Positions 41,321-41,726 of a DNA stretch of 64,000 nucleotides are shown piece by piece. The notes under the pieces were generated by a model. The model ran no database searches and was not told where the DNA came from. It saw nothing but the letters and a program-made list of their open reading frames with translations. This DNA is from the human T2T-CHM13v2.0 reference genome, Homo sapiens. The DNA lies in the NCBI RefSeq assembly GCF_009914755.1, contig NC_060932.1, one strand, 5' to 3'. Position 1 is the stretch's first letter. Each line of letters starts with the position of its first letter. The position numbers and the translations under genes were made by a program.

Positions 41321-41726
41321 GCTGGGCGCGGTGGCTCATGCCTGTAATCCCAGCACTTTGGGAGGCCGGGATGTGAATACCGGGCCTTAAATGTCTTAAA
41401 TGCGGGAGAGAGTACTTGGCCCTAGATTTGCCTGCCTTCATCTTTCTTCTGACTCCAACCTCAGTTGGAGGCAGGCAGATCACGAGGTCAGGAGATCAAG
41501 ACTATCCTGGCTAACACGGTGAAACCACCTCTCTACTAAAATTACAAAAAATTAGCCAGGCGTGGTAGCGGGCACCTGTAGTCCCAGCTACTCCGGAGGC
41601 TGAGGCAGGAGAATGGCGTGAACCCAGGAGGCGGAGCTTGCAGTGAGCCAAGATCGCGCCACTGCACTCCATCCAGCCTGGGTGACAGCGAGACACCGTC
41701 TCAAAAAAAAAAAAAAAAAAAAAAAA
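41321..41726 (+). mobile_element. AluY carrying a 100-bp foreign insert
   Basis: AluY diagnostics; TSD AATGCCTCCA; consensus GGAGGCCG|AGGC interrupted at 41369-41468. Confidence 0.95.
41369..41468 (+). repeat. 100-bp insert; 41392-41466 is a diverged copy of 44842-44916
   Basis: 65/75 identities, no gaps, same orientation, offset 3450 bp. Confidence 0.95.

What the first reader, a model, noticed from the sequence alone, without database searches (positions are those of the whole stretch)
41369..41468. Exactly 100-bp insert inside an AluY is a diverged, acceptor-dead copy of the exon 3450 bp downstream
Seen: the AluY consensus GGAGGCCG|AGGCAGGCAGATC is split by 100 non-Alu bases. Removing them restores the Alu with no base lost, and the insert has no poly(A) or clear TSD. 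41392-41466 aligns without gaps to 44842-44916 (65/75; 8 transitions, 2 transversions), covering the splice acceptor and the first 67 nt of the 44850-44980 exon. The acceptor TTAG becomes TTAA in the copy. The first 23 nt (GGATGTGAATACCGGGCCTTAAA) do not match the source's polypyrimidine tract. Inference: 13% mostly non-CpG divergence is more than expected for a copy made after an AluY insertion. The donor may therefore be an older paralogue or other homologue rather than the local exon, or the copy was mutagenically templated. An engineered or assembly artefact is also possible given the round length. If real, it could act as an upstream decoy exon or a gene-conversion template.
Basis: partly seen in the sequence, partly recalled or inferred. 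Interest (0 to 1): 0.9.

Follow-up and report, generated by a model that had tools for sequence, protein, structure and literature searches.

The report
Old break-repair patch inside an Alu
A 100-base piece copied long ago from unique DNA 3.45 kb downstream sits inside an Alu repeat, and it fits a known, common and apparently neutral by-product of DNA break repair in primate genomes.

Summary
One Alu, bounded by intact 10-nt target-site duplications, is split by exactly 100 non-Alu bases (41369-41468). Of these, 41392-41466 match 44842-44916 at 65 of 75 positions without gaps (8 transitions, 2 transversions). The insert is in the genome assembly itself and is not an artefact of the window. Five genome-wide pattern searches found these two copies and no third, so the pair is not an ordinary dispersed repeat.

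The anatomy fits "repair-mediated duplication" (Pace et al. 2009, PMC2671141). That class consists of insertions of 50 bp or more inside transposable elements, copied from a single donor less than 5 kb away on the same chromosome. They lack poly(A) and target-site duplication, and they carry filler and microhomology at the junctions. The paper reports 824 such events in human, some of which duplicate exons and splice sites.

The 13% divergence is at most a mild excess over what the Alu's own decay predicts (Poisson p 0.013-0.21, depending on how it is counted). It fits an event soon after the Alu inserted.

The 23-nt "orphan" weakly resembles a second, rougher copy of part of the same donor (15/23; shuffle p about 0.003).

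The "exon" is not annotated in the supplied table, and nothing supports a decoy-exon role. The finding is ordinary and of low interest.

The parts
41310..41319 (+). 5' target-site duplication of the Alu (AATGCCTCCA)
   Evidence: Read directly. It is identical to 41726-41735.
41320..41368 (+). Left fragment of the interrupted Alu (about the first 48 consensus positions)
   Evidence: It aligns to the 5' ends of 7 other Alus in the window and continues without loss at 41469.
41369..41391 (+). 23-nt 'orphan' at the left junction. It is either filler or a rougher second copy of donor 44854-44876.
   Evidence: It is unique in the genome: one 3-mismatch hit on another chromosome, against one hit for the control pattern. 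It matches 41404-41426 and 44854-44876 at 15/23, and 67 and 53 of 20000 shuffles reach that level. Its last 6 bases plus the first two of the copy (41386-41393) also repeat the 8-mer found at 41395.
41392..41466 (+). Acceptor copy of the donor, 65/75 identical and ungapped
41467..41468 (+). Two G at the right junction (filler). One of them may belong to the Alu, a 1-nt ambiguity.
41469..41727 (+). Right fragment of the same Alu, with its A25 tail
   Evidence: Rfam gives an SRP/Alu match at 41555-41704.
41726..41735 (+). 3' target-site duplication of the Alu
44842..44916 (+). Donor sequence. It is unique, in the same orientation, and 3450 bp downstream.
   Evidence: Genome-wide, only it and the acceptor match.
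44850..44980 (+). Exon-like segment of 131 nt, flanked by a pyrimidine tract with AG and by GTAAGT. It is not annotated in the supplied table.
   Evidence: Two of three frames are open, and there is no Pfam match.

Best explanation
This is a repair-mediated duplication.

Proposed sequence of events (inferred from the class; nothing here shows it directly):
1. After the Alu had inserted, probably in the catarrhine or early ape lineage some 18-30 Myr ago, a double-strand break opened it between consensus positions of about 48 and 49.
2. A 3' end from the break invaded unique DNA 3.45 kb downstream on the same chromosome and copied about 75-80 nt in the same orientation.
3. That end was released and joined to the other end, with 18-23 nt of filler on the left and 1-2 nt on the right. 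No Alu base was lost.

Both copies then drifted neutrally. The 10 differences, including the G-to-A change that removes the AG in the copy, are ordinary substitutions split between the two lineages. The insert has no demonstrated function.

Shown directly: the anatomy, the uniqueness of the pair, its presence in the assembly, and the absence of retrotransposition marks.

Inferred: the break-and-copy mechanism, the timing, and neutrality.
For: 1. One Alu with intact target-site duplications is interrupted by 100 non-Alu bases with no loss of Alu sequence.
2. 75 nt of the insert match a sequence 3450 bp away on the same strand, E 1.6e-21.
3. Across 3.1 Gb, five pattern searches (27-35-nt degenerate patterns allowing up to 3 further mismatches, plus a two-anchor pattern) return exactly these two places. 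Hits for the control patterns were 0, 0, 0, 0 and 1.
4. Nothing else in the window resembles 44731-45200, by blastn at word size 7 or by nhmmer --max.
5. There is no poly(A/T) and no duplication at the insert's ends.
6. Every one of these features is a criterion or a hallmark of the repair-mediated duplications of Pace et al. 2009 (PMC2671141; sections 6, 7, 8, 10 and 21 read). The paper reports insertions of at least 50 bp inside transposable elements, with a single donor. The donor lies within 5 kb in 824 of 1136 cases. Proximal inserts have a mean length of 162 bp. None of the 39 proximal cases inspected had a poly(A/T) tract. Filler ranged over 1-68 nt and microhomology over 2-9 nt. In 7 of those 39 cases nothing was deleted. 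Donors included partial exon/intron pieces and splice sites. The rate was 11.8 events per Myr in the 18-30 Mya period when AluY was active.
7. The age is compatible. The K2P distance of 0.151 gives about 34 Myr (95% range 15-53) at the paper's rate. The Alu itself has lost about 10 of 23 CpGs and carries 2.2-3.1% non-CpG change.
8. At the four sites where copy and donor differ within the stretch that the orphan may also copy, the orphan agrees twice with each. This is what drift in both lineages would give.
Against: 1. The divergence sits on the high side. There are 8-9 non-CpG differences where 3.0-4.3 are expected even if the copy was made the moment the Alu landed (Poisson p 0.013-0.07). 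Counting all sites the p value is 0.06-0.21.
2. Microhomology at the junctions is only 1-2 nt, and it depends on how the orphan is aligned. This is no better than chance.
3. The donor covers 75-80 of the 100 inserted bases. That is at or just under the paper's rule that a hit must cover 80% of the query, so this locus may not be in their list.
4. No outgroup genome was available, so neither an empty site nor the direction of the 10 changes was seen.
5. My genome search would miss a third copy more than roughly 10% diverged from both known copies. The plain DNA mode did not even recover the known 87% partner.
Confidence: 0.75

Rival explanations
1. The donor was not the local sequence but an older paralogue that has since been lost or is now too diverged to find. 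Alternatively, the Alu's source element already carried the insert.
For: There is a mild excess of non-CpG divergence over the Alu's own (p 0.013-0.07). The left 18-23 nt do not match the donor's flank. The sensitivity of the genome-wide search is limited.
Against: - There is no third copy in 3.1 Gb by five pattern searches.
- No other Alu carries the insert: the 100-mer and its 23-mer are unique.
- The only relative lies 3.45 kb away in the same orientation, which is the typical geometry of proximal capture.
- The excess disappears when CpG sites are included.
Confidence: 0.1
2. The copy was made by error-prone, iterative template switching (Pol-theta-like or MMBIR-like synthesis). Part of the divergence would then have been present at birth, and the orphan would be an abortive first round on the same donor.
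For: - The orphan matches donor 44854-44876 at 15/23 (shuffle p about 0.003) and carries 6 private changes.
- The donor has a 7-nt internal repeat at 44845 and 44871, at the point where the two parts would join.
- Multi-part templated insertions joined at microhomology, or at imperfect microhomology, are described in PMC8421209 (passages seen).
Against: - No known repair polymerase makes 13% errors, let alone 35% (my own knowledge, not a call).
- The resemblance of the orphan is a post-hoc observation. A gapped local alignment to the donor region is not significant: 445 of 2000 shuffles score as well.
- The last 8 nt of the orphan region are explained as well by a small tandem repeat within the insert.
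- The template is 3450 bp away, not within about 100 bp as in the yeast signature.
Confidence: 0.08
3. The insert is an assembly, engineering or data-handling artefact.
For: The length is a round 100 nt and the offset a round 3450 nt.
Against: - The assembly holds it at C8:66815369-66815468, exactly window start plus 41368.
- Two genome loci fetched independently are identical to the window.
- NCBI's mask coordinates supplied by the hub fit the Alus mapped both upstream (for example 39031-39344 against 39038-39334) and downstream (for example 49364-49675 against 49372-49665, and 61488-61890 against 61495-61798). No 100-base shift exists.
- There is no match to 72,556 plasmid records.
- An artefact would not carry transition-biased divergence from a local sequence.
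Confidence: 0.02
4. The copy is functional, as a decoy pseudo-exon or regulatory element for a transcript that uses 44850-44980.
For: The donor has strong splice-like signals. Pace et al. note that such duplications can copy exons, splice sites and binding sites.
Against: - The AG is lost and the pyrimidine tract was not copied. There is no 5' splice site, since the copy stops 64 nt before the donor's GT.
- Codon changes are 8 non-synonymous to 1 synonymous.
- The 'exon' is not in the supplied RefSeq table, and there is no Rfam or Pfam signal.
Confidence: 0.03

Closest known systems
[quoted passage not shown]
   Same: A transposable element is interrupted by at least 50 bp of non-repeat DNA. 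There is a single donor on the same chromosome, less than 5 kb away. Poly(A) and target-site duplication are absent, and filler sits at the junction. The divergence is as expected for a neutral pair of catarrhine age. The donor overlaps an exon-like/splice-site sequence.
   Different: The donor covers only 75-80% of the insert. Microhomology is minimal and nothing was deleted from the target (7 of the 39 proximal cases inspected in the paper also lacked a deletion). Divergence is on the high side for an AluY host.
Class 2 templated sequence insertion polymorphisms (TSIPs), Onozawa & Aplan 2016 (PMC5110952, abstract and passages)
   Same: A patch of templated DNA sits at a repaired break, without target-site duplication or poly(A), and with NHEJ-like junctions including non-templated nucleotides.
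   Different: TSIPs are described as templated from distant regions, probably through RNA, and as polymorphic in people. Here the donor is 3.45 kb away in cis and the event is old. Whether an RNA intermediate was involved cannot be told, although the copy includes 8 nt upstream of the exon-like start and so did not come from a spliced RNA.
Microhomology-mediated templated insertions (MMB-TI/MMBIR), Osia et al. 2021 (PMC8421209, passages)
   Same: The insertion may consist of several parts copied by successive template switches before returning to the original site.
   Different: In the passages read, the yeast-derived signature has the template within about 100 bp of the insertion. Most junctions there have 2-12 bp of microhomology, whereas here it is 1-2 nt.

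Membership tests
Repair-mediated duplication (Pace et al. 2009) | Two fragments of one transposable element, in the same orientation, are separated by at least 50 bp, and their consensus positions abut within +/-30 bp | tested here: met
   The gap is 100 bp and no consensus bases are lost or gained. The criterion was read.
Repair-mediated duplication (Pace et al. 2009) | The inserted sequence is found at only one other place in the genome | tested here: met
   Five of 5 pattern searches of the 3.1-Gb assembly return only the two copies. Tolerance was limited to about 3 mismatches per 27-35 nt beyond the degenerate positions.
Repair-mediated duplication (Pace et al. 2009) | The donor is on the same chromosome, more than 50 bp and less than 5 kb from the acceptor (the proximal class) | tested here: met
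   The offset is 3450 bp on the same strand. The class definition was read.
Repair-mediated duplication (Pace et al. 2009) | No poly(A/T) tract of 5 bp or more at an end of the insertion, and no retrotransposition marks | tested here: met
   The insert's ends were read, and no A or T run occurs at either end. The only target-site duplications are those of the Alu itself.
Repair-mediated duplication (Pace et al. 2009) | Junction signatures of break repair: filler (1-68 nt), microhomology (2-9 nt) and/or deletion (1-15 nt) | tested here: inconclusive
   Filler is present, 18-23 nt on the left and 1-2 nt on the right. Microhomology is only 1-2 nt and depends on the alignment. There is no deletion.
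Repair-mediated duplication (Pace et al. 2009) | The BLAST hit covers at least 80% of the query at 50% identity or more | tested here: inconclusive
   Coverage is 75 of 100 nt by blastn and 79-80 of 100 nt by nhmmer, at 87% identity. This is borderline for the paper's filter.
Repair-mediated duplication (Pace et al. 2009) | An empty (uninterrupted) site in an outgroup species | not testable with these tools
   No primate genome other than the window's own assembly is held.
L1-mediated insertion (class 1 TSIP, retrocopy or transduction) | A target-site duplication of at least 5 bp around the insert, a poly(A) tail, and a TTTT/A target | tested here: not met
   None of these is present at the insert's ends. 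The features were read.
Ordinary dispersed repeat family | Many diverged copies across the genome or window | tested here: not met
   No further copy was found in the window by blastn at word size 7 or by nhmmer --max, nor in the genome by pattern. Rfam gives only Alu/SRP hits. An ancient family with more than about 15% divergence cannot be excluded, but it would not explain 87% identity between these two copies.

The most novel reading that the evidence does not exclude
The insert was born diverged. A single error-prone, iterative template-switching repair event would have laid down two overlapping copies of the same donor with very different fidelity (16/24 and 65/75), so much of the 13% divergence reflects synthesis errors rather than age. 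That would be a fossil of hypermutagenic repair synthesis in the primate germline.
Probability: 0.07. Interest if true: 0.5.

Novelty: new member of a known kind. Interest (0 to 1): 0.12.

Why it matters
It matters little by itself. The locus is a clean, well-delimited example of a break in an Alu patched with nearby DNA. The Alu serves both as a ruler for the junctions and as a clock for the maximum age. Such events are already counted in the hundreds in the human genome and are known to copy exons and splice sites. The only point of wider interest would be proof that the copy was diverged from birth, which needs outgroup genomes.

Tried and rejected
- **Whole-genome DNA-mode searches.** Queries with the 100-mer and with 44731-45200 found only the query's own location and missed the known 87% partner. 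This mode is too insensitive to say anything about relatives. I replaced it with pattern searches.
- **A 75-place degenerate pattern.** I replaced it with patterns of 35 places or fewer.
- **Foreign or vector origin.** There was no match in plasmids.
- **RNA gene or structured element.** Rfam gives only Alu/SRP and Alu-derived miRNA-family hits, all outside the insert and the donor.
- **Coding exon.** There is no Pfam match. The frame is open but the changes are 8 non-synonymous to 1 synonymous.
- **RNA-editing or DGR-like directed mutation.** The 10 changes are of mixed types in both directions, with no single-base signature.
- **Alu-Alu recombination using the antisense Alu at 44429-44730 as template.** By my reasoning (no call), this would give an inverted copy adjoining duplicated Alu sequence, which is not what is seen.
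- **Hairpin as cause.** An inverted 16/19 match (41425-41443 against 41463-41481, E 2.4) and a DNA fold z-score of -2.19 (6 of 200 shuffles fold as well) are not beyond chance.
- **Gapped alignment of the orphan to the donor region.** It is not significant: 445 of 2000 shuffles score as well.

Full report
**Observation**

An Alu begins at about 41320, directly after AATGCCTCCA (41310-41319). It ends in a run of 25 A, followed by the same 10-mer (41726-41735). It is therefore a single retrotransposition event with intact target-site duplications.

Between 41368 and 41469 lie 100 bases that are not Alu. Aligned with seven other Alus of the window, the two flanks abut with no base missing or added. 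The insert can be slid by one position because a G flanks both ends.

A script confirms that 41392-41466 and 44842-44916 are identical at 65 of 75 positions without gaps, with 8 transitions and 2 transversions. One difference turns the source's TTAG into TTAA. The match has E 1.6e-21 by blastn and E 3e-13 to 4e-14 by nhmmer within the window. nhmmer extends it by 4-5 bases on the left. The first 18-23 bases and the last two bases of the insert do not match the source's flanks.

**Is it really in the genome?**

The held assembly (3,117,275,501 bases in 24 contigs) contains the 100-mer once, at C8:66815369-66815468. That is window start plus 41368. Two loci fetched from the assembly are identical to the window.

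Independently, the repeat-mask coordinates that the hub took from NCBI's file coincide with the Alus I mapped by BLAST on both sides of the insert. Examples are 39031-39344 against 39038-39334, 49364-49675 against 49372-49665, and 61488-61890 against 61495-61798. The window therefore carries no extra 100 bases relative to the public record.

There is no match to plasmid records. I reject the artefact reading. The round numbers 100 and 3450 are coincidence.

**Is the pair special, or a repeat family?**

The plain DNA mode of the genome search is too coarse to answer this. It did not even recover the known 87% partner. I therefore used patterns that allow either base at the ten differing positions plus up to three further mismatches, and one pattern built from two conserved 12-mers.

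All five searches returned exactly the two known places. Hits for the control patterns were 0, 0, 0, 0 and 1. The 23-base orphan is unique, apart from one 3-mismatch hit on another chromosome, which matches the single hit for the control pattern.

Within the window, blastn at word size 7 and nhmmer with filters off find nothing else resembling 44731-45200. Rfam reports only Alu/SRP-type hits, none in the insert or the donor.

A third copy more than about 10% diverged from both would have escaped these searches. Membership of some ancient family would not in any case explain 87% identity between two copies 3.45 kb apart.

**How old is it, and is 13% too much?**

I built a yardstick from the Alu itself. 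Against the consensus of the three closest Alus in the window plus itself, it has lost about 10 of 23 CpGs to transitions. It also carries 5-7 non-CpG-type substitutions in 229 sites, or 2.2-3.1%. The script's raw count of 9 is inflated by a misaligned 2-base deletion near the 3' end.

If the copy had been made the moment the Alu landed, the pair should show 3.0-4.3 non-CpG differences in 69 sites. It shows 8-9 (Poisson p 0.013-0.07). Counting all sites with the Alu's CpG rate, 5.7-7.4 differences are expected and 10 are seen (p 0.06-0.21).

The K2P distance is 0.151. At the 2.2e-9 per year used by Pace et al. this gives about 34 Myr, with a 95% range of 15-53 Myr from the binomial interval. 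That overlaps the 18-30 Mya period to which the paper assigns AluY activity.

**The orphan**

The 23-mer's best non-self matches in the window have 8 mismatches, which is what shuffled 23-mers also reach. However, two of the nine such places are the corresponding stretch of the copy (41404-41426) and of the donor (44854-44876). Only 53 and 67 of 20000 shuffles match those targets as well.

At the four sites where copy and donor differ in that stretch, the orphan agrees twice with each. It also has six private differences.

Against this, a gapped local alignment is not significant (445 of 2000 shuffles). In addition, the 8 bases at 41386-41393, which span the orphan's end, repeat the 8-mer found at 41395, so a small tandem duplication explains that part equally well.

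I treat the orphan as filler of uncertain origin. It may be an abortive first round of copying on the same donor.

**What it is**

The anatomy matches a described class point for point. Pace, Sen, Batzer and Feschotte (2009, PMC2671141; I read sections 6, 7, 8, 10 and 21 and further passages) searched the human genome for transposable elements interrupted by at least 50 bp whose insert has exactly one other copy. Their findings include:

- They found 1136 such cases. In 824 the donor lay within 5 kb on the same chromosome.
- Proximal inserts had a mean length of 162 bp and a median of 147 bp.
- All 39 proximal cases inspected lacked poly(A/T) tracts.
- These cases showed combinations of microhomology (2-9 nt), filler (1-68 nt) and small deletions. 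In seven of the 39 nothing was deleted.
- Twenty acceptors were chimeras of two donors.
- Donors included full exons, partial exon/intron pieces and splice sites.
- Donor-acceptor divergence rose with age, as expected for neutral drift.
- The rate was 11.8 events per Myr at 18-30 Mya. The authors link this to breaks made by L1 activity.

They attribute the events to synthesis-dependent strand annealing. A 3' end at the break invades nearby DNA at a short complementary stretch, copies it, is displaced and is joined to the other end.

The present locus meets the criteria for an interrupted element, a single donor, proximity and the absence of retrotransposition marks, and it has filler. Its microhomology is only 1-2 nt. 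Its donor covers 75-80% of the insert, which is borderline for the paper's 80% filter.

Two related descriptions differ in donor distance or junction features. These are class 2 templated sequence insertions (PMC5110952, abstract and passages) and microhomology-mediated templated insertions (PMC8421209, passages).

**Function**

The 'exon' at 44850-44980 rests on splice-like motifs only. The supplied RefSeq table has no exon in the window, and the one listed gene is on the other strand.

The copy has lost the AG and did not copy the pyrimidine tract. It also stops 64 bases short of the GT. In the frame that is open in both copies, 8 of 9 differing codons change the residue, and there is no Pfam hit.

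Nothing supports a decoy-exon or conversion-template role, though this was not tested experimentally.

**Verdict**

The explanation is a known, common and apparently neutral by-product of break repair.

The residual oddities are the somewhat high divergence and the orphan's faint likeness to the donor. They leave a small chance (about 7%) that the copy was synthesised with many errors. Only outgroup genomes can test that.

Noticed in passing
window 44850-44980: The exon-like segment is open in two of three frames, one of them starting with ATG and running for 43 codons. It has a strong GTAAGT after it. It is on the + strand, whereas the only gene in the supplied table is on the - strand with no exon here. 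It may be an unannotated lncRNA exon or merely chance signals.
   Followed up: partly
window 41425-41443 vs 41463-41481: The insert contains a 19-nt stretch that is the imperfect (16/19) reverse complement of the Alu sequence just right of the junction. Three of the ten copy/donor differences fall in it. DNA folding of 41340-41500 gives a z-score of -2.19, and 6 of 200 shuffles fold as well. This is not beyond chance.
   Followed up: partly
window 41386-41402 and 44845-44877: The insert has the 8-mer CTTAAATG twice, 9 nt apart, spanning the orphan/copy joint. The donor has the 7-mer CTTAGAT twice, 26 nt apart (44845 and 44871). Both copies of the motif in the insert carry the same G-to-A change that removes the AG.
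   Followed up: partly
window 41467-41471 vs 44917-44921: The five bases that follow the copy in the acceptor (GGAGG) are the reverse complement of the five bases that follow the donor segment (CCTCC). This is probably chance.
   Followed up: no
window 41553-41604 and 41621-41684: There are sub-threshold Rfam matches to mir-1268 and mir-3135 inside the right arm of the Alu (64.9 and 52.5 bits, below gathering scores of 83 and 80). A weaker mir-1268 match lies in the antisense Alu at 44540-44591. I take these to be Alu-derived family models hitting ordinary Alu sequence.
   Followed up: no
window 41660-41700: Relative to its closest relatives in the window, the Alu itself carries a 4-nt insertion (in CTCCATCCAGCC) and a 2-nt deletion near its 3' end. 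The deletion misaligns the tail and inflates automatic substitution counts.
   Followed up: yes
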